Shown in pieces: positions 3,282 through 27,700 of a DNA stretch of 60,677 bases. The notes under the pieces are model-generated. The model saw only the letters and a list, made by a program, of their open reading frames with translations, did no database searches and was not told where the DNA came from. Source of the DNA: an uncultured euryarchaeote. GTDB taxonomy: Archaea > Thermoplasmatota > Poseidoniia > Poseidoniales > Poseidoniaceae. The stretch spans positions 1 to 60,677 of the forward strand of contig CAXDRT010000001.1 of the NCBI GenBank assembly GCA_963991835.1, read 5' to 3'. The position numbers and the translations under genes were made by a program. Numbering within the stretch: position 1 is the first letter of the stretch; each line of letters opens with the position of its first letter.

Positions 3282-6200
3282 TTATTGTGAAGGTTGTTGG
3301 TAATTTGGATCTGGGACCCATTGATTCGATTCTTGGTCCCATAGCCATCCAGGATGCTGACCAGAGGCTTCAGCCGCCTCAGGTTGAACTTGTTGTATAA
3401 CTACCTGTTGCGGTTGCTGTGGTGCAGAAGTTTCTACGACATCTTTGCGACCCCATGCATATGGATCTTCTTCGACAACTTGTTGATTTTCAGTTTCAAA
3501 TGCTTCCTCTTCAATGTCTTCAAGTTCAATGAAGAAGAACCCAATAGCCCCAAGTAGGACAAGAGCTGCAACAACCAACCCAATGATGAGCAATAAATTT
3601 CCACCATCATCTTCAGCACCAACTGCGACATTGAACCCTGTTGGATCGTTTGTGCCTCCGAATGTTTGGCCATCCATTTCAAACTTGATTTCATTTGAAG
3701 CATCATTCATGTCTTGCAAGGTAAGTTCCATCGACCAGATACCATTGTCACCAACAACAACAGATTTTACAAATGTTGAGCTTGAAACGGTACGTGCTTC
3801 AATTCTGCTTCCAGGCAATCCAGTTCCGTTAAAGACAGCAGGATCATCAGCAGTTACTGACTCACCAGCATCCATTCGCTGTGCATTGAATTCAATGGAT
3901 TGAACAAAGAATGTAACACCCTCTGAGTAAATCACTGAATCTTGAGTATCTCGAACAACGAATCGAACGTTTTCAAGAGTCCATTTGTCAATTTCCTCAT
4001 CTGTTCGCGATGTTGCTGGATCGTATCTGGCAACACCATTACTATCAATGACAACATAAACTGGATGCAAATTATCATCTGAAACTGTTGGGTCATCGAC
4101 GAAATCGATACTCAGTTCATCAAATCCACCATCAGGATCTGAGAAGAAATCCTTCAAATCGATAGAAGCGCCACCACCACATTGGTTTTCGGATGAGGAA
4201 TCTTTGACACAGAAAATTGGGATCGTATTCTTCCAGTTTGTTCTATCGAATTGTGGAGGGATATTGTTCTCATCTGTTGGCTTATCGATGGTGATTCGAA
4301 CTACATCAGAAACTGAATAATCTTCACCATCGTAAGCTTTGACACTTATTTCATACTGACCTTGGTGGTCGAGTTTACTCGTGTCCCACAAAGCAGTCCA
4401 TGTGTATCCAGGACCTGTCTTAATGAAATCAGTTACAGGTCCAGGGCCATTGTTGAGAATCAATCCACTTGCAAGGTCTGTGATGACGATTTCAACACGA
4501 GTAATCGTTCCATCAGCACCATCACTTGCAAATCCAATCAAGGTCGTGTTCGTGCTTGCACGAACTGTTTGTGTACCGTCTGGCTCAAGTAAATCAACGA
4601 TTGGAATGATGTTATCGTTCACGACAATGACTGTTCTTGTTTGAACAACACAGATATCTTGCTCATCATCACAGTAGTCACTGTCACTCGCCCAAACTTC
4701 GAAATGATATTCACCCGATTCAAGTTCATCGAAATTCCATTGATAAGCCCATGCGACTGTACCGTCAATTGCAAAGTGAGAACTGTATCCATTCGGTCCA
4801 GTTACATCAAACCAGACATCTTGGATATCGGATCCCCAAGTACCTGAATACGGGTCAGAAGCAGTTCCTGTGAAGAGGATTTTACCGTTCGTGTGTGTTG
4901 AACCATCAAGAGGTTCGTTGAGGTATAGTGTAGGAGGTACGAGGTTAAGTTTGAATTTTCGTACTTCAATTGGAGAGTAATCAAGACCATCGTATGAACG
5001 GATTCTGAATGTTACATCGCTTTCACCTTCAGGATGAGCTGATAGGTCCCATTCAAATGACCAGGACTTGAATGGATGATTTTCTTTTGTCAACTCTCCA
5101 TTAGCACCTGATGTATCAACCGCATAATACCAATCTGAACTGCCTGGTGGTTGAATCTCTACACGATCAACCAAGCCAAATTGAAGTTGATTAGCCAGAT
5201 AATCGGTCTGACCACCTAGTTGTCCATCCCAAGCAGATCCAGTAATAACGGCATTGATCGCAAACGAATCCCCATCGTATTGTTCAATTGTCACTCCTGG
5301 GCGGAGGTTATCAAGATTGATAATATCGTCAACAGGTCCACTCAAAACGAAGTTGAAATCCTTCTTTCCTTTGTTGAATTTGTATGCTTCGACGATATAG
5401 AATGGTAATTCTCTACCGTTTACACAGTCTGTATCTGCATCATCGACGTAGGTATCACCATCGTTGTCATAACCATCAGAACAGGTATCTTCTGTCACGA
5501 CAATTGGATTTCCATCATCATCGAGAGCACCAGGTATTGTGACATCAGACTCTCCCACGATGTGATTCCAATTTCGATCCAACAGGAAATCTGATGGAAG
5601 AGACACTTGTTGAGTAAATCCAAATTCATCGGTTGTGAGTTCATACATCGGCAGTCCTGTAGCATCTTTGATGATGACCGTTGCACCTGCAACGTTGCTG
5701 TTCTTAGCTTTCACTTGATAGCGAACAAGTTCACCTTCTCGAACTTGAGAACCCCAAGCAGAGTTCTGATTTTGAACGTGAACTTTCGTAGCATCAAAAT
5801 TCTGCAAATCAGCAAAAGAGAACACTGTCGAGTTGTTTACCAATTCAATTGCGAGCGGCATGTCTCGAGGAGGCATGATGCTCGTATCAGGAAGCAACAA
5901 ACACTCAGATTGTACAAAGGGGCACTCAGCACCTTGCCATGAGAGCATTACTGGGTGCGTGTATCCACCTTGTACATCTGGAATATATTCTGACTGAACG
6001 GTTACTCTTGACTCAGAGATGTTGTAAATTTGTGTGGCATTTGTCCAAGTGTTGCCTGAAAAGTAACCAATTGAACCAAATTTAGATCCATACTTGTTAT
6101 CAAAATGACTGATATTGGCTGCAAACTGTCCTGCTTCAATTGTATTGTCTTGGACGTTTACAATTGAACCCTTGATTCGAATTCCATCACCTGCGTTTCC

Positions 6201-7619
6201 AGTAACAGTGTTACCTACGATTGTAGCAGATGCCATAAAGATATGAATTGCAGGGCATTGGAAATCGCCGCCGTACATCCAAACGGAGTTACAAACTCCT
6301 GTGTTGTTGGCAACGATGTTGTTTGCGATGTATGCACGATTAGGTGAAGGGCTTGGGTAGTTACTTCCGCTATCCTGATAGAGGTATTCACCAATCTTAA
6401 TCGATTCCTTAGCGATATTAGTAATAGTATTGTTCTCGAGTTCTACATCAGAACTTCCAAACACCCAGAAGCCGTTGTAACCAGTGATTGGACCAATCGT
6501 GTTCTGATGAGCACTTACTGTCGAATCACGAATACCAAATCCGGAACCTTGTGCTGCTCCTGTAATCGTATTACCAGTTGCAGAGATAATTGAACCATCA
6601 TAAGCAGTAATTCCAGCACCATCACCAGTTGTGATTTGATTGTTATCGACATAGAGTGTGTGTGAATAATCACCGGTCATCTTGTGAGAATTGGTGTCAA
6701 TACCGTTGCATTTTACGTCAAGTGTTGAATTTCCAAAGGAACCTGATGAACCCCGAAGGAACACACCCTGTGCATTATCCTTGATATCGAGATTATCTAG
6801 TTCAATGAAGGAATCTTCGGAATAGATTAAACTTATTCCATCCTCACAAGAAGCATCAGCATCGCCTGTGAATTCTGAGCCAGTGATGCTGAATTTGGAC
6901 AAGATACCAGCACCTGCGCTGAATGCTTCGACACCAGGACCGTTGTACCCAAGTCCATCAACTCCAAGACTAAAGGTTGAGTCTCTTATCGATGGTGCGG
7001 CTAGATCTATTGCAATCAAGTTTGTCGTATTGATATCAGAAAAGCCGAGATTATCTGCTGTTGCGGATGAACCGTCAAAAATGAGTGCTGCATACTTCAC
7101 AACCTGCAATGAACTTACATAGACTGGTGTACCGTAAGCTTTGTCGAATTGGACGTGAGACAGACCTGTTGATGCTTGGTTGATTGTATTTCGAATCATA
7201 ACACCAGAACCGCATGCAGCATCTGGGTTGTTCAACAAATTATTCCCTTGAACACTGCATCGTCCGACTATAGATGTATCAGCAGGGGCATACCAACTCA
7301 AGCGGACTGGAGAGGAAGCGCTAGCCTGACTGGCACCACAAGAAGCCGAACCTGCACAGATCGCACCCTCGACTTCAATGAAAGCACCCGCTTTGATGTT
7401 AACAGTCGTACCAGCATTGATGACAAGTTTGGCACCTTCCGCTACAATGACGTCACCTGTAACGGTGTGAGTACCGCTCCAAGTCTCTGTTGTGGTGATC
7501 GTTCCGCTAGAAGTCTCGTTTACAGCACTTACCGCTGGTACGGTCATAAGACCCATCAATAACGATGTGAGTAGTAATCCTACTAAACCGACACTTTTTC
7601 CTGTATTTGTGAATCTCAT
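3282..7619 (-). CDS. giant secreted beta-helix (PbH1/NosD-like repeat) surface protein with C-terminal TM anchor
   Basis: 1445 aa. Signal peptide is GLVGLLLTSLLMGLMTVPAVSA. It has many parallel beta-helix type repeats (NNQITTGDGAGITAYDGSIISATGNTITGAAQGSGFGIRDSTVSAHQNTIG; GNTVTGNAGDGIRIKGSIVNVQDNTIE). A Cys-bounded acidic motif CSDGYDNDGDTYVDDADTDC sits at nt 5424-5483. Ig-like modules follow (LNEPLDGSTHTNGKILFTGTASD). The C-terminal TM is LLLIIGLVVAALVLLGAIGFFFI, followed by an acidic/W-rich tail. SD-like GAGGA lies ~8 nt upstream of the ATG. Confidence 0.8.
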   Translation of the reverse strand: MRFTNTGKSVGLVGLLLTSLLMGLMTVPAVSAVNETSSGTITTTETWSGTHTVTGDVIVAEGAKLVINAGTTVNIKAGAFIEVEGAICAGSASCGASQASASSPVRLSWYAPADTSIVGRCSVQGNNLLNNPDAACGSGVMIRNTINQASTGLSHVQFDKAYGTPVYVSSLQVVKYAALIFDGSSATADNLGFSDINTTNLIAIDLAAPSIRDSTFSLGVDGLGYNGPGVEAFSAGAGILSKFSITGSEFTGDADASCEDGISLIYSEDSFIELDNLDIKDNAQGVFLRGSSGSFGNSTLDVKCNGIDTNSHKMTGDYSHTLYVDNNQITTGDGAGITAYDGSIISATGNTITGAAQGSGFGIRDSTVSAHQNTIGPITGYNGFWVFGSSDVELENNTITNIAKESIKIGEYLYQDSGSNYPSPSPNRAYIANNIVANNTGVCNSVWMYGGDFQCPAIHIFMASATIVGNTVTGNAGDGIRIKGSIVNVQDNTIEAGQFAANISHFDNKYGSKFGSIGYFSGNTWTNATQIYNISESRVTVQSEYIPDVQGGYTHPVMLSWQGAECPFVQSECLLLPDTSIMPPRDMPLAIELVNNSTVFSFADLQNFDATKVHVQNQNSAWGSQVREGELVRYQVKAKNSNVAGATVIIKDATGLPMYELTTDEFGFTQQVSLPSDFLLDRNWNHIVGESDVTIPGALDDDGNPIVVTEDTCSDGYDNDGDTYVDDADTDCVNGRELPFYIVEAYKFNKGKKDFNFVLSGPVDDIINLDNLRPGVTIEQYDGDSFAINAVITGSAWDGQLGGQTDYLANQLQFGLVDRVEIQPPGSSDWYYAVDTSGANGELTKENHPFKSWSFEWDLSAHPEGESDVTFRIRSYDGLDYSPIEVRKFKLNLVPPTLYLNEPLDGSTHTNGKILFTGTASDPYSGTWGSDIQDVWFDVTGPNGYSSHFAIDGTVAWAYQWNFDELESGEYHFEVWASDSDYCDDEQDICVVQTRTVIVVNDNIIPIVDLLEPDGTQTVRASTNTTLIGFASDGADGTITRVEIVITDLASGLILNNGPGPVTDFIKTGPGYTWTALWDTSKLDHQGQYEISVKAYDGEDYSVSDVVRITIDKPTDENNIPPQFDRTNWKNTIPIFCVKDSSSENQCGGGASIDLKDFFSDPDGGFDELSIDFVDDPTVSDDNLHPVYVVIDSNGVARYDPATSRTDEEIDKWTLENVRFVVRDTQDSVIYSEGVTFFVQSIEFNAQRMDAGESVTADDPAVFNGTGLPGSRIEARTVSSSTFVKSVVVGDNGIWSMELTLQDMNDASNEIKFEMDGQTFGGTNDPTGFNVAVGAEDDGGNLLLIIGLVVAALVLLGAIGFFFIELEDIEEEAFETENQQVVEEDPYAWGRKDVVETSAPQQPQQVVIQQVQPEAAEASGQHPGWLWDQESNQWVPDPNYQQPSQ

Positions 7620-7688
7620 TTCAATTCCTCTAAACCTTCGGAGAACCTGAACGAATATAATACTGCGCCCATGCCGACTGTCATTAAA

Positions 7689-7756
7689 ATATCATAAATA
7701 CCTAAAAGTATCAATTATAAGCCTTCAATAATATCATTTTACTCCAATAATATCAT
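7689..7756 (-). promoter_or_regulatory. AT-rich upstream region of the adhesin gene with direct repeats (CAATAATATCAT x2, ATATCAT x3)
   Basis: CAATAATATCAT occurs at 7726-7737 and 7745-7756 (19-nt spacing), with a further ATATCAT at 7689-7695. The region lies 70-137 nt upstream of the ATG at 7619, and TATA-like AATATAATA is at 7654-7662. Function not established. Confidence 0.25.
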
Positions 7757-7799
7757 ACTAGAAACCAATATTGATCTGTTGATAGAGCGGTATATTTGC

Positions 7800-9005
7800 T
7801 CAGCAGTCTATTGTTGATGGAATAGAATCCATCCATGCTTTAGCATCGAGAACACCATATCCTTTGCGTGTATCATGCGTCATGTCGGGTGAAAGTGATG
7901 AGGCCAGAGATGATTTTACAAGTTCAATACAATCGGTTCCAGATTCATTTGTTCGCTTTAATTCAGGATGTTCTTCAAGAATCAATGCAAGAGCTCCTGC
8001 GACAAATACCGTAGCATCGGAGGTCCCACTAGAGGAATACCATTCATCGTTCATTCCAGTTGATACAATAGAAACACCTGGAGCGGTTAATTCTGGTTTC
8101 TGATTGGGGTACTCTCGTAGATTACCGTCTGAATCGACTTGCTCTCCAGCTGAAGATTTTGACCAAACTTCATTGAAGCGATCTGATGCACCAACTGTAA
8201 TAGCTAGATGGACGTTACCAGGAGCACTAACAAAACCATCATCTGATGAACCACCATCATTTCCTGCTGCTGCAACCACGTAGATTCCAAGATCGAGTGC
8301 TTGTCGAGTGGCGGAAACTGTTGCGCCTTCTCGTGAGGCTTCTTGATTTTGTTCACCTCCTAGGGAAAGCGAGATAATATCCGCTTCAAAATCAAAAATA
8401 CACCACCGGATGGCAGAGGCGACTCTTGATTCAGAACCTGTATTCTCGTCACCATCTGCACTTAGAGCAGCTGCCATTCCAAGAGTAATCCCCTGTGCGA
8501 TACCATCTTGATATCCTGAAGAAATGAGGAGACCAGCCATGAGCGTACCGTGCGAAATCGAACCGTAATCAACTGGAGACACTTCACTACCGACAAAGTC
8601 CTTGAACTCAATCGTTGTTCCTGCGAGAGCTGAATGAGTTAGAGAGATACCAGTATCGACCATGCAGAGTCTTACGTCATCACCTGTCAGACCGTCTTGT
8701 TGTAATTCTCGAATGTTAGTATCTTCGAAGGCCCACTCTGATGAAGGTGGAGGTAATTCCAAGATAAGAAGATCCGATTGCCAGAGAATCACGATAAGTG
8801 CCATCACCAAAGCAATGACTGCACCAGAAACAACTGATAACACTCTTCTCGGTCGAATTGATACTGGCTCTGGTATTACGGGCGCCCACCCAGTTACCTC
8901 CGCTCTCCATTGATCTTGGAAACCTCGTGTACTGGGGTCAATCGCGGAAAGAATTCTGGGCTCACCTGGCTCAGGGAGCAACTCTATTCCTTGAAGTTCC
9001 TCCAT
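7800..9005 (-). CDS. membrane-anchored subtilisin-like serine protease (peptidase S8)
   Basis: 401 aa. The catalytic triad contexts are CMVDTGIS (Asp), SISHGTLMAGLL (His) and SSSGTSDATVFVAGALALI (Ser), with the oxyanion Asn in AAAGNDGG. A single N-terminal TM is VLSVVSGAVIALVMALIVILW (signal anchor, N-in). Confidence 0.85.
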   Translation of the reverse strand: MEELQGIELLPEPGEPRILSAIDPSTRGFQDQWRAEVTGWAPVIPEPVSIRPRRVLSVVSGAVIALVMALIVILWQSDLLILELPPPSSEWAFEDTNIRELQQDGLTGDDVRLCMVDTGISLTHSALAGTTIEFKDFVGSEVSPVDYGSISHGTLMAGLLISSGYQDGIAQGITLGMAAALSADGDENTGSESRVASAIRWCIFDFEADIISLSLGGEQNQEASREGATVSATRQALDLGIYVVAAAGNDGGSSDDGFVSAPGNVHLAITVGASDRFNEVWSKSSAGEQVDSDGNLREYPNQKPELTAPGVSIVSTGMNDEWYSSSGTSDATVFVAGALALILEEHPELKRTNESGTDCIELVKSSLASSLSPDMTHDTRKGYGVLDAKAWMDSIPSTIDC

Positions 9006-9059
9006 CTTCCTCCCACAGAGGTGGGGCTCTTATGGTATCAAACCTTGTCTTCTTACGTA

Positions 9060-12000
9060 TCAGAATCGAGTACCTGAGCCGCCACGAGTTCGTGCCGCCT
9101 TGATACCGAAGTAAAGAATAATGATGATTAACGCTACAATTGCGACGAGAATCAATGAACTGTCTTCCTCATCCGACCCTTGTACAATGTATTCAATTCC
9201 GAAGTCCTCGTTTGGCAAATCACCAGTTGTAAAGTTTGCATCATCACCACTTACTTCGACTCGAACATCAAATCTCTCAATTCCTTGAGATGCTGCTGAC
9301 AAATTGAAGAGGAAGTCCTGTGAACCAAGAGCTGGAACAGAGAGAGTTTTGTTAAATTCCTGTCCGCTCGAAGGTGTTAGGAAGACGGTTACTTCGCTTG
9401 CTGAACGTAGGCCAGAGTTTTCAATAACAATCACGACATTGTTCGGATCTTTATCGGCGAAGGTATTACTTCTTGATTGAGTCTTATCTTCGTCGAATGA
9501 TAATGAAATTCTTGCGGATTCGATTGTAATTTCAACGTCTTGAGATTCACCATTTTCACTGCTAATTCGAACTGTCATGACTACTTCACCACTTTCGAAT
9601 GCTGTATCTGAGGAAACTGTAAATGCCAAATCTCGCATGTTACCCTTTGCAATGGTTGTAACATCGTTCATCGGACCAACAGTCCATCCTTCAGGAAGGT
9701 TGTCAAGTACTTCGTAGGTGAATGTATCATCACCGTTACCGTTGTTGTTTATCGTTAATCCTGCAGTAGTCACACCACCTGGCGATACACCCACAGTCTC
9801 GGTTACATCCGTAGTGTTGAACCCAAAGTATTGCGGAACTGCAACCTTGAGTGACACTTCAGTCATGTCTCCAGTATCTGCCATGAAGCGGACGTTCAAA
9901 GTGTGTCCATTATCGAGATGCCAAGCATCTTCAACCGACGGAAGATTGATTCTTGCTTGAACTGTTCCGTTCATTGTAGCATTTGCATCAACATCACCAA
10001 TACCGAGTGAGAGGTCAATTGAATCAACCCATGCACTGCCGTTGTAGAATTCAAGACTCCAATCAGCTTGGTCAGGTGAAACAGTCACTGTACCAGTAAC
10101 TGCGAAGGTATCCATAATTTCTGTTCCTTCGTATGTTGCAAGAACATCAAATTCAATGGTTGAGTAGTTCGCATCATCATCGGTCAAAATTGTGGCAGTC
10201 ATCTCTCTGTTTTCGTTTGTAAGGCCTGTAGCGTTTACGACATTGTTGACGCCGAGTGTAAGATCACTGTTGGTCTTTCTGTTGTATGAAAGCATAATTG
10301 AAGTTCGACCTTCATCTCCGTTCTCAATTGAGACTCCTGAACTGTAGTTCATTGTCAAGTCTCTTTGAACTGTTGTGAATTCGGAAGAGAACGAGGCTGA
10401 ACCTGATGGAAGTAAGACTTCAAGCGTACCATCTGAGTTGAGAGGCATGTTCCATACTTGTCCTTCACCAAGGTCGATTTCAACTTCCACAACAGATTGA
10501 ACTGGCGAAGAAGCGTTATCCGTACCTGCGTTGTATGGTTGCAAGTTGAATGCCGTGAATTGAGTATTGAGGTCAATCCAGCCACCCTTGCTCATAACAA
10601 GGTCAACTGTACCACCATCTTGTACTGCTGCATCGAGAATACCAATTGCAATTCCACCGCCGTTAAACGGAGCATCTGCTTCAGATACGACAACAACCCA
10701 TTGCCCTGGCTCGAGGGATTGAGTGAAGGTTAATTCATCTGCTGCATATGTACCTGTGACGTTAATCATTTCTTCTTGGTTTTCCGCAGTTCCGTAAAGA
10801 ACAATACTTGCACCATCAAGACGATCAGAATCGAGGATATCAGTGACACTTCCTGTAACGGATACTTGTGCAGCTGCCATTTCAATATCTTGTGACAGTG
10901 GCTCGCCTCCAACGACGTAGAATCCTGAATTGTTATCATCATAATTGACAACACCAAATCCATCCTTTGCTACAGAAACTGTGTAATTTTCAAGAATTGG
11001 TACATAGAGACTCCAAACACCGTTTTCATTGGTTTGGATGACTGTATCGAGACTTCCTCCTTGAATGGTTACGTTCGCACCTTCAACGCCTTCATTAGCA
11101 TCTCCTATGTCATCTTCGTTAACATCCCAGAATGCTTTCCCACCAATTTCGACTTCAAGATCGGCATAGACCATTCCTAGGCTTGTGTTTTCAGTAAGCG
11201 ATTGAGGGGAACTCGAAGTGTCGAGTGACCATACACGTTGTGCAGCAGTCTCGTTCATGAAGAGACTCCATGTACCAGGCATCAGCATTTGTGTAGCATT
11301 ACCATCAGCATCGGTTGGATTCATTGTAATGTTACCGAATCCGTCATGACTTACCAAGACAATTTCCTTTCCAATCAATGTTTGATTGGTACCAGATTCC
11401 ATGAGCGTGAGTGAGACCTCAACGGTTTCAATCATGCTCATATTGAGGTCGATTCGCTGCGAAGCATCAGAATCAACTGTGATTGGCATTCGCAATGATT
11501 CCATGATACCATCAGCGTTTAGCATAGGTGCTACGACAACAACATAGTCGCCTGTAGGGACATATTCAGCGAAGGTTCCGTTTGCATCAACATTCAATGG
11601 AACATATCCTGTTCCGTCAGCGGATGCAAGGAGAATGTTCTCGACCATTGCAGAGCCATTCATCCATGAAATAGTACCTGTAACTCTCCATTCATCAACG
11701 ATTGGAACAACGATGGCCTCTTCAGGTCCATTAAGTCCAATAGCGATAACATCGAGAACTCCATTGAATTCTAAGCTTGCATCCGATGCATTTTCATCAG
11801 CAGCATCGAGGTGATTGGTTTGAATTGCATAGATACCAGGACTTAGAACCGCTTCAACAATACCGTCTTCTGAATAATCAGAGGAGGTTAAGTTAACTTG
11901 CTCACCAATCTGTGATACTGGGATCAATTGAATATCTGGACGAATCGCAGTACCGTTCTCAAACACACTGTCGCCAAGGTCAGTGAAGACGTTGAGAACG

Positions 12001-18644: not shown

Positions 18645-18662
18645 TGTTTTCCCTCAGAGGAT

Positions 18663-20045: not shown

Positions 20046-20098
20046 CCTATCTAGGCTGATAATTCAACCGCAAAAGGGGGCTCACAACAAGAGGCTTC

Positions 20099-20788: not shown

Positions 20789-20830
20789 TGCAGGCAAAGC
20801 ATTGATGATTCAATACATGGTGGCCAAACC

Positions 20831-22612
20831 ATGCGAACAGCAAGCGTATTGACAATTTTGATGATGATTCCCATCCTTTTTGCAGGTGTGGCACTGGCAT
20901 CACCACCTACAAACGGAACAACAACAACTGTCTCTGATTCTCAAACATGGAATGGTGGTAATTTCAATGGAGATGTTATTGTTGCAAGCGGAGGTGTCCT
21001 TACTTGGACCGGTGAATCTCAAATCGCAACAGATTCTACAATAACAGTCGAAGAAGGTGGAACACTCAATCTCGATCATGCAGAATTAACAGGACAATCT
21101 TCAGTCTCAACTCTTCTTATCTTTGACAATACCAACATCGTTATCGATGAAAGCATCACAGACACTGATGCAGTAATGACCATCCATTTCAATATTAACG
21201 TACCACAGGAAGCCTATTTGAATTTGACCATAAATGGGACAACAACCAATGAGATTACTGGAACGTCATTTGAGGCAACTGTGGACTTGAACCAAGAATT
21301 TTCGATCGTAGTCGATCACCATTATCCACTTCCATTTGGAATAACTCATATCGAACTATTCCATTCAAATGCTGAACTGATAACGATTTCTGCGGAAGAA
21401 TTTACGCAAAGTGGAGGAAGCCTTTCATGGAATCAACCATCCTTCCATATCTTCAATCATGGAACTCTAGTTTCAGAAGGCTCGACATTAATGGGTGCAA
21501 ACATTAGTTGTGAACATCTTTGTCAATTTAATGACTCAACACTGGTTGGCAGTGGCCCAATCAATGTTGCTGATCAAACCCATATCGGGGTCAACAATTC
21601 AATGATCCTAGGTTCGAGAACAGACGAAGACATCATCCTACATGACCAAGCCACAATTGACTACGAGGAGACGACTGGAACTGGAGGCTACACTGACGCA
21701 TGGATTCGACTTCTTTCCAAGAGAGAAATTCACGTCAACGCTCAAGTAGCAACAGTAGTAGCAACAGGAATTGGTTACAACAGCAACACAATCAATACAG
21801 TCATCAACGGCGAATCAGACCAAAGCACATGGTTTGTTGACCTCGGAACAAGCGAAAGCAAGAGAATCGTTGAATGGGTTGATGGGTCAGGTGAATACAA
21901 TCAAGAAACTGGAACGATCAAGATTACTGTTGAATCAAACTGGGGTGATTTTATGGCCGATGCAGCAGCACCAAAAACCTCAACTGGATTTGTCAACATT
22001 ACATACCCATCACTAAGTATCGATAAAATTGAACCAGATTCAGTGACTGCAGATACTGGGAAGAGTCACTATGCAATGATTACAATTTCAAATACAGGTT
22101 CTGTAACTGCAAATCCAAATGTTCGATGCTATACCAACGGAGAAGAGGCAGATACAACAGCAAATACAGGCAATTGGGAAGTTGCTCCTGGAGAATCCAA
22201 GGTCGTACCAATCACATGGTGGCATTACACTGATGAAGCGACAACATTGAATTGTAAATTCTTGTATCCGGATGTTCTAGAAGCTGTGAGTAATTTAATC
22301 GCAGATGAGGCAGGTCAAACATCAAGTGAAGTCTCTTGGACAACAGCTGAAGAAGTTGAAGAACTTCCTGTCCTTCTCTATGGACTTATTGTGGCCATTG
22401 TTGTGGGATTGGGAGTCTTTGTAGCACTGGGTTCACGTCGATTGCAGAAGAAAGAGTACTTCGAGTCTGAAGAAGTATACGATGGTGAAGAAGAGGAAAG
22501 TGTTGATGAAGAGCCAACAGAATCATCGGAGGAATCCAATGAAGAAGAGATTGAAGATCAGACTTGGACAGATGCTGATGGAAATCCTATCGTATCGGCT
22601 AAAGACGAATAA
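20831..22612 (+). CDS. secreted surface protein with CARDB-like domain, C-terminal TM anchor and acidic tail
   Basis: 593 aa. Signal peptide is VLTILMMIPILFAGVALASP. The N-terminal module resembles the start of the 1445-aa adhesin. A CARDB-like segment reads ITISNTGSVTANPNVRCYTNGEEADTTANTGNWEVAPGESKVVPITW. The TM is LLYGLIVAIVVGLGVFVALG, followed by an E/S-rich tail ending QTWTDADGNPIVSAKDE. Confidence 0.6.
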   Translation: MRTASVLTILMMIPILFAGVALASPPTNGTTTTVSDSQTWNGGNFNGDVIVASGGVLTWTGESQIATDSTITVEEGGTLNLDHAELTGQSSVSTLLIFDNTNIVIDESITDTDAVMTIHFNINVPQEAYLNLTINGTTTNEITGTSFEATVDLNQEFSIVVDHHYPLPFGITHIELFHSNAELITISAEEFTQSGGSLSWNQPSFHIFNHGTLVSEGSTLMGANISCEHLCQFNDSTLVGSGPINVADQTHIGVNNSMILGSRTDEDIILHDQATIDYEETTGTGGYTDAWIRLLSKREIHVNAQVATVVATGIGYNSNTINTVINGESDQSTWFVDLGTSESKRIVEWVDGSGEYNQETGTIKITVESNWGDFMADAAAPKTSTGFVNITYPSLSIDKIEPDSVTADTGKSHYAMITISNTGSVTANPNVRCYTNGEEADTTANTGNWEVAPGESKVVPITWWHYTDEATTLNCKFLYPDVLEAVSNLIADEAGQTSSEVSWTTAEEVEELPVLLYGLIVAIVVGLGVFVALGSRRLQKKEYFESEEVYDGEEEESVDEEPTESSEESNEEEIEDQTWTDADGNPIVSAKDE

Positions 22613-22619
22613 TGCCTCT

Positions 22620-23855
22620 TTATGATTGATATGGATTTGTCATATCAAATGTTCTGATAGCTTGTTCTTGATATTGAACATTCACCCTATAGTCGCATGG
22701 TTCTGCACATATCTGATTGTTTATCTGTTCAAAAACCAAAAAATCTCCTGCTGAAAGTTGCGGATACCATTCATCACCCTGTTCTACATCATACAGTACA
22801 ACTACACAGGCACCATCTTCATCACCTACAGTCACCCAACTTCCGTTACCTTCTGAATCGAGTGGGATGAACATTCTTGTAAGCAAGTTACATTCGAAAT
22901 TACCAGATTCTGATGAAATAAAGAATTGAACATCCGAATAGGGCACCGCGGATTCAGTTAACTCAACACTCAATCCAAACAGGGCATCTCCTACAGATCC
23001 CTCGGCAGTGGTTTCACTTGATTCGAATATTACGCGGGGAGCGGTCGATTCAAATTGAGGGAAAGTGCAATCTAAATCCTTCATTTCAGCGTAAATGTCT
23101 TCAGCAATACTAAGAAATTTATTTGTCCATGGATCATCGATACCAAATCGTATGTTACCGTTGATAATCAAACTTGGAATATGTGATTCATAACTCTCGG
23201 GAGTCACCAAAGATGACCCCATTCCATTAATCATAATTTCACATGAGACAAGGCTCTTGTAAACAATTCCGTCAGGTAAAACATACACTTCAGCACAGTA
23301 TTCTTCGTAGCCGGCATTTGAACATATTTCATACTCATTCCCATTCAAGTATTCTGTTTGATAATTCGAAACGGCCATTATTCTTGTGCAAAATCCATTC
23401 TCCTCAACGTATGTAAATTCCAAGAAATCATCGTACCATGCTGAACAATCATCATTTACTAATGGATATACTTCCTTCATTTTATCTTCTTCAAACATAT
23501 ACCCATGGCCAGAATCAACCCAATATACCTCACCATAGAAGTCCGGTTCAGTATAATAATCATAGACAAAATACCCTGCGATTCCTGCAACAAGTAGTCC
23601 TACGAGTGTAACTGCAATAAGAATAGGGCGTTTTTTTGATTTCTTATCATTGAAGGATTCTTTATCTCCGTTATTATTACCATCTGATTCCTCAATTGCT
23701 GAGGCATTCGATTCGACTTCCACCATGTGGTAAGCATCGTTCTCTGAATACCAACGATTACCTTCGTCATCGAGATACCAATGATTCCCATCTTCATCAT
23801 TCTCAAGCCACGTACCAGGTGGTAATTCTTCCCAACTACTCACAGTTGTGGCCAT
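22620..23855 (-). CDS. type II (N-in) single-pass membrane protein with WW-like cytoplasmic N-terminus
   Basis: 411 aa. The N-terminus is SSWEELPPGTWLENDEDGNHWYLDDEGNRWYSENDAY. The TM is ILIAVTLVGLLVAGIAGYFVY. The ectodomain is Cys-containing with no recognisable family. Confidence 0.55.
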   Translation of the reverse strand: MATTVSSWEELPPGTWLENDEDGNHWYLDDEGNRWYSENDAYHMVEVESNASAIEESDGNNNGDKESFNDKKSKKRPILIAVTLVGLLVAGIAGYFVYDYYTEPDFYGEVYWVDSGHGYMFEEDKMKEVYPLVNDDCSAWYDDFLEFTYVEENGFCTRIMAVSNYQTEYLNGNEYEICSNAGYEEYCAEVYVLPDGIVYKSLVSCEIMINGMGSSLVTPESYESHIPSLIINGNIRFGIDDPWTNKFLSIAEDIYAEMKDLDCTFPQFESTAPRVIFESSETTAEGSVGDALFGLSVELTESAVPYSDVQFFISSESGNFECNLLTRMFIPLDSEGNGSWVTVGDEDGACVVVLYDVEQGDEWYPQLSAGDFLVFEQINNQICAEPCDYRVNVQYQEQAIRTFDMTNPYQS

Positions 23856-23952
23856 GTTAAAGCGACAATTCGCTTATTGATAATGTATTCTAGAAAAATG
23901 CTTGATCAATCATCTGTGAATAATGAGTGCCATTGACAAAATGATTTTTCAT

Positions 23953-24366
23953 CTAATAGGTAAGCTGGACATCAGATTTTGTTGCAAGAGCAATTACTCC
24001 GGGAGGGCCGCTCCATTCGATTTTATCATCTGCAACAATGAGAGCGCCATCTCCTTCACTGTGTCCTAGAGTTGCTTTTACAGAAGCAAATGAACAAAAG
24101 AGCGTTGCCTTGGAAATAATCGCATCCATGAATCCAGAGACCATCTTTGAGTCAGCCCCTATTTCGTTATCCAATTCTTCGATGTATCCTCGATCCAATA
24201 ATCGAGTACCTGACGCAGCAAAAAACACACTCACATCATGCCCATCGTTGATGGCTTGTGCTACACAAGCAATACCAACAATTGTCTTTAATGTGTCATT
24301 CTTTGGCTCGGATACAAACTTAACAAAAACGCTCTTGCTCATAGTCTTACCATTGAAAGATATCAC
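23953..24366 (-). CDS. DsrE/DsrF-like family protein (tentative)
   Basis: ~129-137 aa, small alpha/beta-looking protein (VGIACVAQAINDGHDVSVFFAASGTRLL). The likely start is MSKSV at ~24342. The assignment is by overall resemblance only. Confidence 0.4.
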   Translation of the reverse strand: MISFNGKTMSKSVFVKFVSEPKNDTLKTIVGIACVAQAINDGHDVSVFFAASGTRLLDRGYIEELDNEIGADSKMVSGFMDAIISKATLFCSFASVKATLGHSEGDGALIVADDKIEWSGPPGVIALATKSDVQLTY

Positions 24367-24412
24367 TTAATTTCTTTCATCGAAGGTCCGAGTCAAACAA
24401 ATCGCAGTTTGT

Positions 24413-24658
24413 TTAGTATATTTCTGGGATATCGAGTTCCCGTAGTTTTCTCTCTTCGTTTCGGCGTACCCATCCGTGTAATACAACGTAAAGGATTAGA
24501 ATCGAAATTGATGCTAGGTTGATGACCAGGTGCAATGCACTGGATGCGTACCCCTTTTCCCACCAAAGATAATTGTTGTAACTCAATCCAACAACGATTG
24601 CTAAAGGAACATTACCCCCCAAGAGAAGCAGTAGCATCAACAGGTACATCAGTGCCAT
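24413..24658 (-). CDS. small two-TM membrane protein
   Basis: 81 aa with two hydrophobic helices and a basic C-terminus. It fills an otherwise empty gap. The palindromic TATA-like CTAAATATTTAG (24696-24707) lies 38-49 nt upstream. Confidence 0.45.
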   Translation of the reverse strand: MALMYLLMLLLLLGGNVPLAIVVGLSYNNYLWWEKGYASSALHLVINLASISILILYVVLHGWVRRNEERKLRELDIPEIY

Positions 24659-24728
24659 TAATTTCTAACTTCCAATCGCCGTAATTAATCCCTTCCTAAA
24701 TATTTAGTTATACGATTGCAAAAATAAA

Positions 24729-27700
24729 TCATGCATATTTTTGCCAATCTGTTCCATTCCACCAAAACGTGCTTCCATCATCCATCCTTCTGAAGGTATG
24801 TCCATTATCATCTGTCCATTGTTGAAGAGCAACTGGTTCTGCGACAACGGGTTGCACTGCTTGAGCTTGCTGTCCATATCCTGAATCATACGAGGGTGTT
24901 GCTGTTTGTTGTGACACATAGGAAGAGGGATCGATGGTTTGCAATTGGTTTATGATTCCCCCTTGAGCGTATTCTTTGGTTTCGTGTACTTCACCGTCTC
25001 CTTGCCTGCGTGTGTAGAGTAGACCAACCGCAACACCTACAATGACTACGGCTATGAAAAGCAGAACATATGTAAGCCAACCAGTTTCTTCGTCTTCTGA
25101 AGATTCAGTTGCGTCACCGTCTGTGTTTTCATTCTCTTCTACTGGAGGAATCAAGACCTGATCGATAACATGGATGATTCCATTGAATGTCGTAACGTCA
25201 GCAGAGGTAATGTTTGCACCATTAATTCCAGTGGTTAGTGACAATGTGGTGTTATCGCCATTCGCCATTTGGAGTGCCATTCCCTCGGTAATCTCTGTTG
25301 ATGAGAGGGAACCGATGTGAACGTGATAAAGCAGTATATCAGAAAGTATGGCTTTGCCTTCGACTGTATCGAGGGATGCCAAATCAATTCCTGCATTTGC
25401 AAAGGCTTGATCTGTTGGTGCGAACAGTGTGAACGGCCCTTCACCTTGTAAAGTTTCCAATAATTCTGCTTGGATAACTGCAGCCACTAATGAGTTGTGA
25501 ATGCCAGTACATTCCGCAGTTCGTGGAATGTTGTTAGGAGCATCTGTTGGTGAGAGTACCTTATCGATGACGTGAATAATTCCATTGCTTGTGTTCACAT
25601 CAGCAAGCGTAACACTTGCACCATTTACCATAACGCCATCTCCGACAGTGAAGGCCAATGTTTGTCCATTCACTGCAGTTGCGGACATACATTCTGTTAC
25701 TGCGCTTGATGGTACTTCTCCAGATACGACGTGGTAGAGTAAGATGTCTGTCAGATTTGCTTTTCCTTCGACTGTGTCGAGGGCTGCAAGATCAATTCCT
25801 GCATCTGCAAATGCCTGGTCCGTCGGCGCAAAGAGTGTGAATGGTCCTTCACCTTGCAACGTTTCCAATAATTCTGCTTGGACAACGGCAGCCACCAATG
25901 AATCGTGAATACCTGTACATTGGGCTGTTCTCGGGATGTTATTTGGAGAGTCGGTTGGCGAGAGTACCTTGTCGATGACATGGATGACACCGTTACTTGT
26001 TCCAACGTCTGCAAGCGTTACTGTTGCATCATTGACCATGACGCCGTTAGTTCCAACTGTGAAGGAGAGGGTGTTGCCATTCACTGCAGTTGCTGACATA
26101 CATTCTGTGACTGCGCTTGAGGGGACTTCTCCAGATACGACGTGATAGAGCAAGATGTCTGTCAGAGCCGCTTTTCCTTCAACTGTGTCAAGTGTAGCAA
26201 GATCAATTCCTGCATCAATGAATGCTTGGTCAGTTGGTGCGAAGAGTGTGAACGGGCCAGGCCCTTGCAGTGTTTCCAATAATTCTGCTTGAACCACAGC
26301 TGTTACCAGTGTATCATGTATTCCTGTGCATTGTGCAGTTCGTGGAATGTCATTCGGAGTGTCTGTTGGACTCAATACCTTATCGATGACGTGGATGATA
26401 CCATTACTTGTCGAAACGTCTGTTGCTGTGACATTAGCATCATTGACCATTACTCCGTTAGTTCCAACTGTGAAGGAAAGCGGATTTCCATTGACTGCTG
26501 TAGCAGACAAACATTCTGTTACGTTTGCTGCTGGTACTTCGCCTGCGATAACGTGGTAAAGAAGAATGTCAGTGAGTGCGGCTTTGCCTTCAACAGTATC
26601 GAGTGCGGCGAGATCAATACCAGCATCTGTAAATGCTTGATCTGTTGGCGCAAAGACTGTGAAAGGACCATCGCCTTGCAGTGTTGGCAATAATTCTGCT
26701 TGTATTACTCCAGCAACAAGAGAATTGTGCACACCAGTACATTGGGCTGTTCGAGGAATATCGTTCGGAGTATCAGTGGGTGTTAGCACTTTGTCAATAA
26801 CGTGGATGACTCCGTTGCTCGTATCTACATCTGCAAGCGTAACGTTTGCTCCGTTGACCATGACTCCACCGTTGACTGTGAAGGAGAGAGGTTGTCCGTT
26901 TACTGCATCAGCAGACATACATTCAGTCACTGCTGATGAAGGAACATTTCCTGCGACAACGTGGTAAAGGAGGATGTCTGAAAGAATGGCTTTTCCTTCT
27001 GGTGTGTCGAGTGATGCTAGGTCTATCCCTGCGTCTGTGAATGCTTGATCGGTAGGGGCAAAGACTGTGAATGGTCCATTGCCTTGAAGAGTTTCAAGGA
27101 GTTCTGCTTGAATTACACCAGCAACGAGTGAATTATGGATTCCTGTACATTGGGCAGTTCGTGGTATGTCATTTGGAGTGTCTGTAGGAGTAAGCACCTT
27201 ATCGATAACGTGGATGACGCCATTACTGGTACTAACGTCTGCAAGAGTGACGTTTGCATCATTGACCATTACGCCAGAGCCTACTGTGAAGGATAATGAT
27301 TGACCGTTGACTGCTGTAGCAGACAAGCATTCAGTCACTGCACTTGAAGGGACCTCACCAGAGACGACATGGTAGAGAAGGATGTCACTGAGAGTGGCTT
27401 TCCCCTCTGGAGTATCGAGTGCTGCAAGATCAATCCCTGCATCTGCGAATGCCTGGTCTGTTGGGGCGAATACAGTGAATGGGCCTGGACCTTGAAGTGT
27501 CGAGAGCAACTCTGCTTGGATTACACCAGCTACAAGTGAATCGTGAACACCTGTGCATTGTGCTGTTCGTGGGATGTCATTTGGTGTATCGCTTGGTGTG
27601 AGAACCTTATCAATAACATGAATCAGGCCGTTGCTAGCAACAACATCTGTTAGGGTCACATTCGCATCGTTTACCATCACCGTGTTTCCAACTGTGAAGG

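What the first reader, a model, noticed from the sequence alone, without database searches (positions are those of the whole stretch)
3306..24818. Recurrent W-rich, WW-like motif on the predicted cytoplasmic tails of unrelated surface proteins
Seen in five proteins. (a) Adhesin C-tail: HPGWLWDQESNQWVPDP (3306-3350). (b) S8 protease N-tail: QDQWRAEVTGWAPVIPEP (~8880-8910). (c) CARDB protein C-tail: QTWTDADGNPI (22565-22591). (d) Type II protein N-tail: LPPGTWLENDEDGNHWYLDDEGNRWYSENDAY (23727-23834). (e) FAS1x8 C-tail: QQWTDDNGHTFRRMDDGSTFWWNGTDWQKY (24744-24818). A core W-x-[DE]-[DE]-x-G-x-x-[WFY] recurs. In each case it sits on the side of the single TM that signal-peptide or signal-anchor logic places in the cytoplasm, usually after an acidic linker. 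Example (d) resembles the WW-domain consensus LPxGW...D..G..YY.N......W. Inference: this is a shared cytoplasmic docking, sorting or clustering module that links diverse ectodomains to one intracellular partner such as a cytoskeletal, secretion-targeting or turnover component. I know of no described function for it in archaea.
Basis: partly seen in the sequence, partly recalled or inferred. Interest (0 to 1): 0.7.

Follow-up and report, generated by a model that had tools for sequence, protein, structure and literature searches.

The report
Trp-rich mini-domains on archaeal cytoplasmic tails
Marine Group II archaea (Poseidoniales) attach small, highly conserved, tryptophan-rich beta-sheet modules to the far end of the intracellular tails of many unrelated surface proteins; two of the five motifs reported are undescribed shared mini-domains, a third is related to them, and two are private to single gene families.

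Summary
All five peptides exist at roughly the stated coordinates, each on the side of a single TM that signal-peptide, signal-anchor and positive-inside logic place in the cytoplasm. The stated core regex matches only once (protein E), and raw pairwise tail similarity is not above shuffles.

Wider data changes the picture.
- **E tail:** it belongs to a fixed-length, indel-free block, QWTDxxGxTWRxMxDGxxxWWNGTDW. The block ended 0-3 residues from the C-terminus in 77 of 77 genome carriers. It was found at 308 loci in species-representative genomes, the listed ones almost all Poseidoniales, on at least six unrelated architectures. AlphaFold2 predicts a four-stranded beta-meander (pLDDT about 90). 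There is no qualifying Pfam or PDB match.
- **D tail:** SWEELPxGxWLxxDExGxxWYLDxxGxxWYS is a second module. It is N-terminal on a type II protein and C-terminal on type I proteins, so always on the predicted cytoplasmic side. It is weakly WW-like.
- **C, D and E** share significant profile similarity. A is marginal. B is unrelated.
- **A and B blocks** occur only in their own orthologues, but they are the best-conserved parts of those proteins.

My best reading is that these are tethered cytoplasmic docking modules. That function is inferred, not shown. I class it as a new variant of a known kind.

The parts
24732..24833 (-). E-type module (ALQQWTDDNGHTFRRMDDGSTFWWNGTDWQKYA), residues 1216-1249 of the 8x fasciclin protein E (gene 24729-28478). 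It is the extreme C-terminus of a 96-aa tail.
   Evidence: The E-type HMM hits it at 4.5e-26. 53 of 62 exhaustive-search hits carry the same fixed 26-aa block. AF2 with an MSA gives pLDDT 88-94 and four strands. All 5 Trp of the 1249-aa protein lie in its last 116 residues, and 4 of them lie inside this module (W1221, W1239, W1240, W1245).
24834..25019 (-). E tail linker, residues 1154-1215. A basic RRQ stretch follows the TM, then a Q/P/A/V/S-rich low-complexity tether.
   Evidence: Sequence. Family-wide linker composition is Q 17%, A 14%, V 11.5%, P 11%, with 0 W in 5082 residues.
25020..25076 (-). E transmembrane helix, residues 1135-1153.
   Evidence: Hydropathy 2.79. The flanks are acidic before and RRQ after.
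23730..23843 (-). D-type module (VSSWEELPPGTWLENDEDGNHWYLDDEGNRWYSENDAY), residues 5-42 of type II protein D (gene 22620-23855). It is the extreme N-terminus of a 77-aa tail.
   Evidence: It is nearly invariant in 96% and 80% identical orthologues while the linker carries an indel. The D-type HMM scores 2e-31. The same module is C-terminal in L077, L037 and P0057. AF2 on the single sequence gives three strands at pLDDT about 70.
23568..23624 (-). D signal-anchor TM, residues 78-96, preceded by KKSKKR.
22559..22609 (+). C-type block (QTWTDADGNPIVSAKDE), residues 577-593 of protein C (gene 20831-22612). It is the extreme C-terminus, after a very acidic linker.
   Evidence: WTDADGNPIVS is conserved in the L001, L005 and L008 orthologues and in P0058 while the linker is rewritten. 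Profile similarity to the first hairpin of the E-type block is z about 4.7, with 0 of 60 shuffles reaching it. It was found only in C orthologues.
22370..22426 (+). C transmembrane helix, residues 514-532, followed by RRLQKK.
3297..3359 (-). A-type block (QHPGWLWDQESNQWVPDPNYQ), residues 1421-1441 of the beta-helix/Big_7 adhesin A (gene 3282-7619), 4 residues from the C-terminus.
   Evidence: Mean identity to the window sequence across 16 orthologues is 0.92, against 0.80 for the ectodomain and 0.43 for the linker. It persists at 54% overall identity. It was found only in A orthologues. Profile similarity to D's second hairpin is marginal.
3444..3467 (-). Second conserved W block in the A tail (DPYAWGRK), residues 1385-1392.
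   Evidence: Conservation is 0.92 for residues 1384-1392. It was found only in A orthologues.
3540..3596 (-). A transmembrane helix, residues 1342-1360.
   Evidence: Hydropathy 2.99. There is no K/R directly after it, so the topology rests on the N-terminal signal peptide.
8880..8912 (-). B-type block (QWRAEVTGWAP), residues 32-42 of the S8 protease B (gene 7800-9005), in its 54-aa N-terminal tail.
   Evidence: Conservation is 0.975 across 22 orthologues (52-96% identical overall), against 0.755 for the catalytic ectodomain. It shows no profile similarity to the other blocks and was found only in B orthologues.
8928..8984 (-). Second conserved block in the B tail (ELLPEPGEPRILSAIDPST), residues 8-26.
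   Evidence: Conservation 0.89.
8787..8843 (-). B signal-anchor TM, residues 55-73, preceded by RPRR.

Best explanation
The finding lumps together several related things.

**1. Two mobile mini-domains of Poseidoniales (Marine Group II archaea), not previously described.**
- The E-type module is about 30 aa with five near-invariant Trp. It is predicted to fold as a four-stranded antiparallel beta-meander and always sits at the extreme C-terminus.
- The D-type module is about 38 aa, strongly acidic, opens with LPxGxW, and is predicted to fold as a WW-like three-stranded sheet. It sits at whichever terminus is cytoplasmic.
- The C block is a short relative of the first hairpin of these modules.

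**2. Two lineage-specific W-centred blocks, in A and B.** They are private to their gene families but are the most conserved parts of those proteins.

**3. A common layout (shown).** Each block sits at the membrane-distal end of a predicted cytoplasmic tail. In the E-type family it is tethered to a single TM by a 30-140-residue linker that evolves fast and contains no Trp.

**4. Most likely mechanism (inferred).** The tether presents a small sheet with exposed aromatic residues as a protein-protein docking module beneath the membrane. Many different ectodomains, and a few proteins without a TM, would thereby be coupled to the same intracellular partner, or to each other or to the proline-rich tethers of neighbours. 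The purpose would be positioning, clustering or inside-out/outside-in coupling. For A and B the candidate partner is the adjacent, syntenically conserved wHTH-STAND-TPR protein F.
For: **Family reality.**
- An exhaustive HMMER search over 1.84e9 proteins gave 62 hits at E <= 1e-3. 53 of them carry the fixed 26-aa E-type block, 3-4 residues from the C-terminus in all but one (13 in P0052).
- 308 loci in species-representative genomes encode it, and the best 80 are nearly all Poseidoniales.
- The module ends 0-3 residues from the C-terminus in 77 of 77 carriers.

**Modularity.**
- E-type: six unrelated N-terminal architectures, namely fasciclin x3-9, TSP3-repeat proteins, CARDB/NPCBM_assoc, a 5-TM protein, a multi-pass protein and an HNH protein.
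- D-type: N-terminal in D, P0004, P0051 and P0061; C-terminal in L077 (signal peptide + WD40 + TSP3-like repeats), L037 and P0057.

**Cytoplasmic side.**
- K+R rises from 0.22 to 2.03 per 12 residues across the TM (n = 77).
- 46 of 50 database carriers of at least 150 aa have the TM 28-140 aa upstream.
- Carriers have signal peptides and extracellular-type Pfam domains.
- The D module switches terminus with topology.
- Some carriers have no TM: the HNH protein, and proteins with a TerB-like sequence pattern that Pfam did not confirm.

**Fold.**
- E tail with MSA: pLDDT 88-94, strands at 13-18, 24-28, 33-36 and 41-44.
- D tail: three strands at pLDDT about 70.

**Constraint.**
- The W blocks are islands of conservation.
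- Paralogous modules in one genome keep the same W/T/D/G positions.

**Relatedness.** D-E, C-E and C-D profile scores exceed all column shuffles.

**Candidate partner for A and B.** The G-B-A-F order is conserved down to about 50% identity, and F contains TPR repeats.
Against: - No binding partner was identified and no interaction was tested, so docking is inferred only from anatomy.
- No dedicated topology predictor (DeepTMHMM, SignalP) was available. The topology rests on hydropathy, charge bias and domain logic, and A lacks a positive patch after its TM.
- The five blocks are not demonstrably one family. B is unrelated, A is marginal, and raw pairwise similarity is not above shuffles.
- The D-x-x-G turn flanked by aromatics is a generic beta-hairpin signature. 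The search profile also picked up P0017, a 3385-aa protein with 8 internal matches, probably unrelated.
- Foldseek found no significant structural neighbour.
- The HNH carrier is a single sequence on a 4.3 kb contig and could be chimeric.
- Many database 'carriers' are gene fragments.
Confidence: 0.55

Rival explanations
1. The five-way resemblance is largely compositional or generic. Aromatic-x-D-x-x-G-x-x-aromatic is simply what a tight beta-hairpin looks like in an acidic proteome. On this reading the five tails are independent inventions or unrelated motifs, not one module.
For: - The core regex matches only once.
- Pairwise tails are no better than shuffles.
- B has no profile similarity to any other block, and A is only marginal.
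- The A, B and C blocks occur only in their own orthologues.
- Bulk W is not enriched in tails.
- The profile also picked up P0017, a 3385-aa protein with internal repeats such as YVDENGNPLVKGDDGKYY, which is probably unrelated.
Against: - The C-D-E profile similarity is above all column shuffles.
- The E-type and D-type blocks are each shared by unrelated proteins with strict terminal placement.
- All five blocks are more conserved than their own ectodomains or linkers.

This rival is therefore right about A and B as members of 'one motif', but wrong about D, E and C, and wrong that the blocks are unconstrained.
Confidence: 0.3
2. The terminal blocks are sorting, processing or turnover signals rather than docking domains. 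Examples would be recognition tags for a membrane-protein insertion, vesicle-loading, sortase-like or C-terminal protease system.
For: - The E-type block is strictly at the extreme C-terminus in 77 of 77 carriers.
- The D-type block is at the extreme N- or C-terminus.
- The carriers are surface proteins that need sorting.
- The S8 protease B lies in the same cluster.
Against: - The layout is acidic stretch, TM, basic stretch, long linker, then module. From my own knowledge, the known archaeosortase/exosortase signals run motif, TM, then a short basic tail.
- A folded 30-40-aa beta-module is more than a linear tag.
- The D module works at either terminus.
- The E module also occurs on multi-pass proteins and on proteins without a TM.
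Confidence: 0.15
3. The Trp-rich sheets are membrane-interface or lipid-binding elements that fold back onto the inner leaflet, for example to sense curvature or to stabilise a wall-less envelope. On this reading they are not protein-binding modules.
For: - The E-type block has five Trp in 26 residues.
- From general knowledge, Trp prefers the membrane interface, and Thermoplasmatota often lack a rigid wall.
Against: - The modules are tethered 30-140 residues away from the TM.
- The D-type module is strongly acidic, with about 12 acidic and 1 basic residue in residues 5-42 (sequence), which is unfavourable for anionic membranes.
- The predicted fold is a compact sheet rather than an amphipathic element.
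- Some carriers have no TM.
Confidence: 0.1
4. The topology is the other way round, and the modules are extracellular cell-surface beta-hairpin repeats, similar to choline- or cell-wall-binding repeats.
For: - Foldseek and sequence hints to choline-binding and glucan-binding hairpin repeats at non-significant scores.
- No dedicated topology predictor was run.
Against: - The charge bias across the TM is strong: K+R 0.22 before and 2.03 after, n = 77.
- Carriers have signal peptides plus fasciclin, S8, CARDB or TSP3 ectodomains on the other side of the TM.
- The D module switches terminus exactly as the topology requires.
Confidence: 0.03

Closest known systems
WW domain (Pfam PF00397)
   Same: - The D-type module opens with LPPG-x-W, followed by D..G and an aromatic pair, as in LPxGW...D..G..YY.
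- It is predicted as a three-stranded antiparallel sheet.
- 5 of the 9 weak PDB hits of the D-type profile are WW-domain entries: NEDD4, WWOX, SAV1 x2 and ITCH.
- WW domains are small, aromatic-rich and act as docking modules.
   Different: - There is no Pfam WW hit even at E <= 10.
- The PDB hits have E = 0.3-5.
- The Trp spacing is 19 rather than the 20-22 I recall for WW domains, and there is no Pro after the second Trp.
- Foldseek is not significant, with Pin1 WW only at rank 49.
- The E-type model has four strands and did not retrieve WW domains.
- The context is archaeal, on tails of membrane proteins.
DUF2510 (Pfam PF10708)
   Same: 12 of 48 E-type tails hit it weakly through the last hairpin (RWWNGTDW against profile positions 11-22). 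It is the commonest Pfam family among the weak hits.
   Different: - Scores are 13-15 bits against a gathering cutoff of 24, covering only about a third of the profile.
- E itself gives no hit.
- The function of DUF2510 is unknown in any case, and no paper mentioning it was found in the library.
Single blades of WD40/beta-propellers, Polo-box and SAS-4 TCP (G-box) sheets
   Same: These are the best Foldseek shape matches for the E-type model (TM-score normalised to the query 0.5-0.66, rmsd 1.4-3.5 A): four-stranded antiparallel meanders with D-G turns. One top hit is a TCP domain solved in complex with a proline-rich motif.
   Different: All E-values are >= 0.5 and there is no sequence relationship. 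Those are parts of larger folds, whereas this is a free-standing 30-aa unit at a chain terminus.
Cytoplasmic tails of eukaryotic adhesion receptors, and the intracellular Trp-rich domain of Plasmodium SURFIN (functional analogues)
   Same: Diverse ectodomains are joined through one TM to a conserved intracellular element. The SURFIN paper's title (PMC5359885, listed) reports that its Trp-rich domains interact with the membrane skeleton.
   Different: There is no sequence or structural relationship. A partner is unknown here. This is a functional analogy only.
C-terminal sorting signals such as PGF-CTERM/archaeosortase and PEP-CTERM/exosortase
   Same: A conserved element at the extreme C-terminus of many unrelated surface proteins within one lineage.
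   Different: From my own knowledge, those signals run motif, TM, then a short basic tail, and are cleaved. Here the order is TM, basic stretch, long linker, then a folded module. The D-type module can also be N-terminal.

Membership tests
WW domain (PF00397) | Scores above the Pfam gathering threshold with the WW HMM | tested here: not met
   No WW hit for any of the five tails or for 6 D-type tails, even at E <= 10.
WW domain (PF00397) | Two signature Trp about 20-22 residues apart, with a conserved Pro shortly after the second Trp (definition from my own knowledge) | tested here: not met
   In D, W16 and W35 are 19 residues apart, and the sequence after W35 (YSENDAY) has no Pro. The E-type block has five Trp with different spacing.
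WW domain (PF00397) | Three-stranded antiparallel beta-sheet | tested here: inconclusive
   The D tail gives three strands at pLDDT about 70 from a single sequence. The E tail gives four strands at pLDDT about 90. Foldseek is not significant for either.
WW domain (PF00397) | Detectable sequence relationship to solved WW domains | tested here: inconclusive
   D-type profile against PDB: NEDD4 at E = 0.33, WWOX at 0.57, SAV1 at 3.9 and 4.2, ITCH at 5.1. These are 5 of 9 weak hits, none significant. The single-sequence search gave no WW hit.
WW domain (PF00397) | Binds proline-rich or phospho-Ser/Thr-Pro ligands | not testable with these tools
   The E-type linkers are proline-rich (P 11%, with an ..EPxV.. 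stretch just before the module). That is suggestive only.
DUF2510 (PF10708) | Scores above the Pfam gathering threshold (24 bits) over most of the 35-position profile | tested here: not met
   Scores are 12.9-14.9 bits over profile positions 11-22 or 16-25 only. 12 of 48 members hit at E <= 10.
Archaeosortase/exosortase-type C-terminal sorting signal (PGF-CTERM and similar) | Signature motif immediately N-terminal to the TM helix, with a short basic cluster ending the protein (definition from my own knowledge) | tested here: not met
   The carriers have an acidic stretch, the TM, R/K, then a 30-140 aa linker (191 in one multi-pass carrier) and a 30-aa module.
New E-type module family (defined here) | Fixed 26-aa block QWTDxxGxTW..M.DG...WWxGxxW, 0-4 residues from the C-terminus, downstream of a TM and a basic stretch | tested here: met
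   E scores 4.5e-26 with the family HMM and its block ends 4 residues from the C-terminus. The only deviation is F in place of the second W.
New D-type module family (defined here) | SWEELPxGxWLxxDExGxxWYLDxxGxxWYS at the cytoplasmic terminus | tested here: met
   D scores 2e-31 with the family HMM. The invariant columns are listed.

The most novel reading that the evidence does not exclude
Poseidoniales may run a eukaryote-style system in which many different surface adhesins, enzymes and some cytoplasmic proteins are plugged into one intracellular hub through interchangeable WW-like or blade-like Trp modules on flexible proline/glutamine-rich leashes.

The modules would bind either a common cytoplasmic scaffold or the proline-rich leashes of neighbouring tails. 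Alternatively, several single-blade modules could co-assemble into a propeller-like ring. Either way they would cluster and position surface proteins in a cell that has no rigid wall.

A parallel private circuit would couple the tails of adhesin A and protease B to the adjacent STAND-TPR transcription-type regulator F, giving transmembrane signalling without a histidine kinase.
Probability: 0.2. Interest if true: 0.85.

Novelty: new variant of a known kind. Interest (0 to 1): 0.62.

Why it matters
Marine Group II archaea are, to my knowledge, among the most abundant planktonic archaea and have no cultured representative, so how they organise their cell surface is unknown.

A shared intracellular module on many different surface proteins suggests an undescribed layer of organisation beneath the membrane, such as a scaffold, a sorting station or a clustering mechanism. 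It also gives a concrete handle for studying it: 30-40-residue peptides that can be synthesised, folded and used as bait.

The work further defines two or three new domain families that current databases miss. It turns dozens of 'hypothetical' C-terminal fragments in metagenomes into recognisable tails. It also gives a sequence marker that, in the genomes listed here, was almost exclusive to Poseidoniales.

Tried and rejected
- **Genome scan with D alone.** 65 pattern matches, none confirmed. D has only two homologues among 5.8e9 proteins.
- **Indexed search with the E tail alone.** No candidate shared three 5-mers, so one search was wasted. Searches were parameter errors.
- **Pfam on the raw tails.** Nothing except WXXGXW at E = 0.74.
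- **PDB by single sequence.** Only noise.
- **Foldseek on both models.** Nothing at E <= 0.001.
- **Bulk Trp enrichment in tails.** Not significant against ectodomains. I rejected it as the wrong statistic, because the linkers have no Trp and the signal is W clustering in short blocks. My crude family clustering in that call also merged carriers through their shared tails, and it dropped A because of its missing positive patch.
- **Short 31-74-aa 'stand-alone' module proteins.** I rejected these as real mini-proteins. L002 shows a chain of overlapping frameshifted ORFs downstream of a 517-aa ORF.
- **First hhalign null.** Timed out. It was rerun with fewer shuffles in parallel.
- **EF-hand-like calcium-binding reading of the DxDG turns.** Considered by eye and dropped, because the spacing does not fit.
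- **Literature searches.** No description found.

Full report
**1. What is in the window**

The region holds five membrane-anchored proteins.

| Protein | Gene (strand) | Size | Organisation |
|---|---|---|---|
| A | 3282-7619 (-) | 1445 aa | signal peptide, Beta_helix + Big_7, TM 1342-1360, 85-aa tail |
| B | 7800-9005 (-) | 401 aa | 54-aa N-tail, TM 55-73, Peptidase_S8 |
| C | 20831-22612 (+) | 593 aa | signal peptide, no Pfam domain, TM 514-532, 61-aa tail |
| D | 22620-23855 (-) | 411 aa | 77-aa N-tail, TM 78-96, no Pfam domain |
| E | 24729-28478 (-) | 1249 aa | signal peptide, 8 fasciclin domains, TM 1135-1153, 96-aa tail |

Basic residues flank the TM on the tail side in B (RPRR), C (RRLQKK), D (KKSKKR) and E (RRQ). 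A has none, so its topology rests on its signal peptide. The closest named relative of D is from a Candidatus Poseidoniaceae archaeon, so the window comes from a Marine Group II archaeon.

**2. Is the five-way motif real within the window alone? No.**

- The stated core W-x-[DE]-[DE]-x-G-x-x-[WFY] matches once, in E.
- Local alignments between the tails are no better than composition-matched shuffles. The best W-block pair, A-D, has p = 0.02 uncorrected for 10 pairs.
- Pfam and PDB sequence searches on the tails found nothing.
- Across about 1100 Poseidoniales proteins gathered later, Trp is not globally enriched in predicted cytoplasmic tails: 2.2% against 1.9% in ectodomains.

Judged on the window alone, the finding would have looked like pattern-matching on generic beta-turns.

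**3. The E-type module**

A profile of the five tails, searched exhaustively against 1.84 billion representative proteins, returned 62 hits at E <= 1e-3.

- 53 of them carry one fixed-length, indel-free block, QWTDxxGxTW(R)xMxDGxxxWWNGTDW, which ends 3-4 residues from the C-terminus in all but one.
- In a 48-sequence alignment, W14, T15, D16, G19, W32, W33, G35 and W38 are invariant.
- A scan of one genome per GTDB species found 308 loci. The best 80 are almost all Poseidoniales or Poseidoniaceae MAGs, including CM001443.1. Several genomes contribute two or three loci.
- In those loci the module ends 0-3 residues from the C-terminus in 77 of 77 carrier ORFs.
- The carriers fall into at least six unrelated N-terminal architectures: fasciclin x3-9, TSP3-repeat proteins of 700-900 aa, a 1161-aa CARDB/NPCBM_assoc protein, a 5-TM 333-aa protein, a multi-pass protein of about 500 aa, and an HNH endonuclease with no TM.
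- Every membrane carrier has the same layout: acidic stretch, TM, R/K, linker, module. K+R per 12 residues rises from 0.22 before the TM to 2.03 after it (n = 77). The linkers are Q/A/V/P/T-rich and contain no Trp in 5082 residues.
- Within one genome, module variants follow the carrier type (fasciclin carriers end ...QKYA, TSP3 carriers ...QQV or ...QKV). The modules were therefore inherited with their carriers after old shuffling, yet they keep the same invariant positions.
- AlphaFold2 with a 37-sequence alignment predicts a four-stranded antiparallel meander with pLDDT 88-94.
- Foldseek finds no significant neighbour. The nearest shapes are single WD40 blades, Polo-box sheets and the SAS-4 TCP sheet.
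- Twelve of 48 tails weakly hit Pfam DUF2510, but only through the last hairpin and at 13-15 bits against a cutoff of 24.
- The many 31-74-aa 'proteins' that contain only a linker plus the module are gene-call fragments. In L002 the 73-aa ORF is one of a chain of overlapping frameshifted ORFs following a 517-aa ORF.

**4. The D-type module**

- Residues 5-42 of D are almost invariant in orthologues that are 96% and 80% identical overall, while the linker has an indel and substitutions.
- The same block, SWEELPxGxWLxxDExGxxWYLDxxGxHWYSxxDGY, is N-terminal in P0004, P0051 and P0061.
- It is at the extreme C-terminus, after TM + KKKK or RKKPK, in P0057, in L077 (1293 aa: signal peptide, WD40 propeller, TSP3-like repeats) and in L037 (a TSP3-repeat protein).
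- A module that switches terminus so as to stay on the predicted cytoplasmic side is the strongest single argument for both its modularity and its compartment.
- AF2 from a single sequence gives three strands at pLDDT about 70.
- The D-type profile's weak PDB hits are enriched in WW domains (NEDD4, WWOX, SAV1, ITCH; E = 0.3-5), but Pfam WW does not hit.
- D-type and E-type carriers lie close together in three different loci with different carrier pairs: the window, L037 and L077.

**5. Relationships among the five blocks**

I used orthologue- or family-derived profiles and a null of 60 column shuffles per pair.

| Pair | Score | Null (mean +/- sd) | Shuffles reaching it |
|---|---|---|---|
| D-E | 20.4 | 9.0 +/- 2.2 | 0 of 60 |
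| C-E | 17.9 | 8.5 +/- 2.0 | 0 of 60 |
| C-D | 15.9 | 8.3 +/- 2.2 | 0 of 60 |
| A-D | 13.6 | null maximum 13.5 | 0 of 60 (marginal) |
| B with any block | 8.6-9.7 | means 7.0-8.9 | 3-32 of 60 (not significant) |

The tool's own hhalign run gave P = 1.7e-4 and 49% probability for D-E. C, D and E therefore plausibly share an ancestral W-[TL]-D-x-x-G first hairpin. The C block looks like a truncated version. It is conserved in C orthologues (L001, L005, L008, P0058) while the acidic linker is rewritten.

**6. A and B**

A metagenome scan with B returned 28 syntenic loci spanning 52-96% identity.

- The B block QWRAEVTGWAP has conservation 0.975, against 0.755 for the catalytic ectodomain. A second N-tail block, ELLPEPGEPRILSAIDPST, has 0.89.
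- The A block QHPGWLWDQESNQWVPDPNYQ has 0.92, and a second block, DPYAWGRK, also 0.92. The A ectodomain has 0.80 and the intervening linker 0.43.
- In about 1.3 Mb of Poseidoniales sequence these blocks occur only in their own orthologues.

They are real, strongly constrained cytoplasmic elements, but they are private ones.

The gene order G (a 3194-aa AglB/STT3 fusion), B, A, F is conserved in every locus long enough to show it. F is a wHTH-STAND NTPase-TPR protein. It is the best conserved of the four, and its gene abuts or slightly overlaps A. That makes F a candidate reader of the A and B tails. This is an inference only.

**7. Interpretation**

*Shown:*
- conserved Trp-rich blocks at the membrane-distal end of predicted cytoplasmic tails
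- two blocks (E-type and D-type) shared by unrelated proteins
- a confident small beta-sheet prediction for the E-type module
- distribution essentially confined to Poseidoniales among the genomes listed

*Inferred:* a single-layer sheet of 30-40 residues cannot bury five Trp, so its aromatic face is probably a binding surface. The long, Trp-free, proline/glutamine-rich tether would present it beneath the membrane. The same module on surface proteins, multi-pass proteins and a few proteins without a TM suggests recruitment to a common partner or mutual clustering.

*Alternatives weighed in the report:* a sorting or turnover signal, lipid binding, generic hairpin coincidence, and inverted topology.

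**8. Novelty**

- No Pfam family reaches threshold.
- No solved structure matches.
- No paper in the searchable library describes such tails.

The kind of element is familiar: small aromatic beta-modules such as WW, and DUF2510-like blocks. These families, their archaeal membrane-tail context and their strict terminal placement are new. I therefore rate it a new variant of a known kind.

Noticed in passing
window 752-18644 (genes G 9060-18644, B 7800-9005, A 3282-7619, F 752-3274, all on the - strand): The four-gene order is conserved in all orthologous loci long enough to show it, down to about 50% identity. It runs from a giant AglB/STT3 fusion, through the S8 protease and the beta-helix adhesin, to a wHTH-STAND NTPase-TPR protein. 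F is the best conserved (69% identity where A is 54%), and its gene abuts or slightly overlaps A. F is a candidate cytoplasmic reader of the A and B tails.
   Followed up: partly
window 9060-18644 (-): A 3194-aa protein combines about 13 N-terminal TMs and an STT3/AglB oligosaccharyltransferase core with a roughly 2000-aa extension (CarboxypepD_reg and SpaA-like domains) and a final TM with a short basic tail and no W block. This is an unusually large fusion for an AglB.
   Followed up: no
window 35702-40633 (+), tail residues 1555-1643; also L070 12756-13880 (-) and L080 912-3668 (+): A sixth surface protein (6x lamin-tail domain + 2x PLD) has a different W-bearing tail, ARFPGWDKAMIEKYLEMGWSLDQLEEYY. 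Two unrelated Poseidoniales proteins end, after a TM, with GLPxGW[DT]xEQWxWYGxDYL. This looks like a third shared terminal tail module. Several of these blocks open with [LF]PxGW.
   Followed up: partly
L032 3155-6493 (+), C-terminus: An 1112-aa protein with a P/Q-rich tail ends in GLPPGGTYDQSTGQTVYIQADGVRWQMMGDGSFNRL. This is another hairpin-rich terminal block that opens with LPPG. It has no Pfam hit.
   Followed up: no
window 24729-28478 compared with L001 1-1500: The 8x fasciclin gene E is absent from the syntenic position in a relative whose D protein is 80% identical. There the order is J, an 81-aa ORF, a 129-aa ORF, then D. Fasciclin copy number among E-type carriers ranges from 3 to 9, so this surface-protein locus is structurally plastic.
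   Followed up: partly
window 22620-28478; L037 3-3467; L077 2575-10126: A D-type carrier and an E-type carrier lie close together in three loci, although the carrier proteins differ in each: type II protein with 8x FAS1; TSP3 protein with a multi-pass protein; WD40/TSP3 protein with a TSP3 protein.
   Followed up: no
L002 8338-10419: On a 1.59 Mb polished long-read contig, a 517-aa ORF is followed by overlapping ORFs of 49, 73 and 76 aa, and the 73-aa one holds the E-type module. This is most likely a frameshift-fragmented gene. It explains why databases contain dozens of 30-75-aa 'proteins' made only of linker plus module.
   Followed up: partly
L020, L049 (CALDQY01) and L047, L064 (CAXQWT01): Contigs carrying typical E-type carriers are filed under MAGs named Rhodobiaceae bacterium and Salipiger bermudensis. 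These are probably mis-binned Poseidoniales contigs rather than bacterial occurrences.
   Followed up: no
L030 11279-11464 (+): A 61-aa ORF contains a D-type-like hairpin, KGYEWVNDDSGIDWYRVKDSGDEWEAF (local E = 0.002). It may be a small stand-alone relative or a fragment.
   Followed up: no
P0017 (3385 aa), residues about 1660-1677 and seven other stretches: The tail profile also matched internal repeats such as YVDENGNPLVKGDDGKYY in a very large protein, probably unrelated to the tail modules. This is a reminder that the D-x-N-G turn flanked by aromatics is a generic hairpin signature.
   Followed up: no
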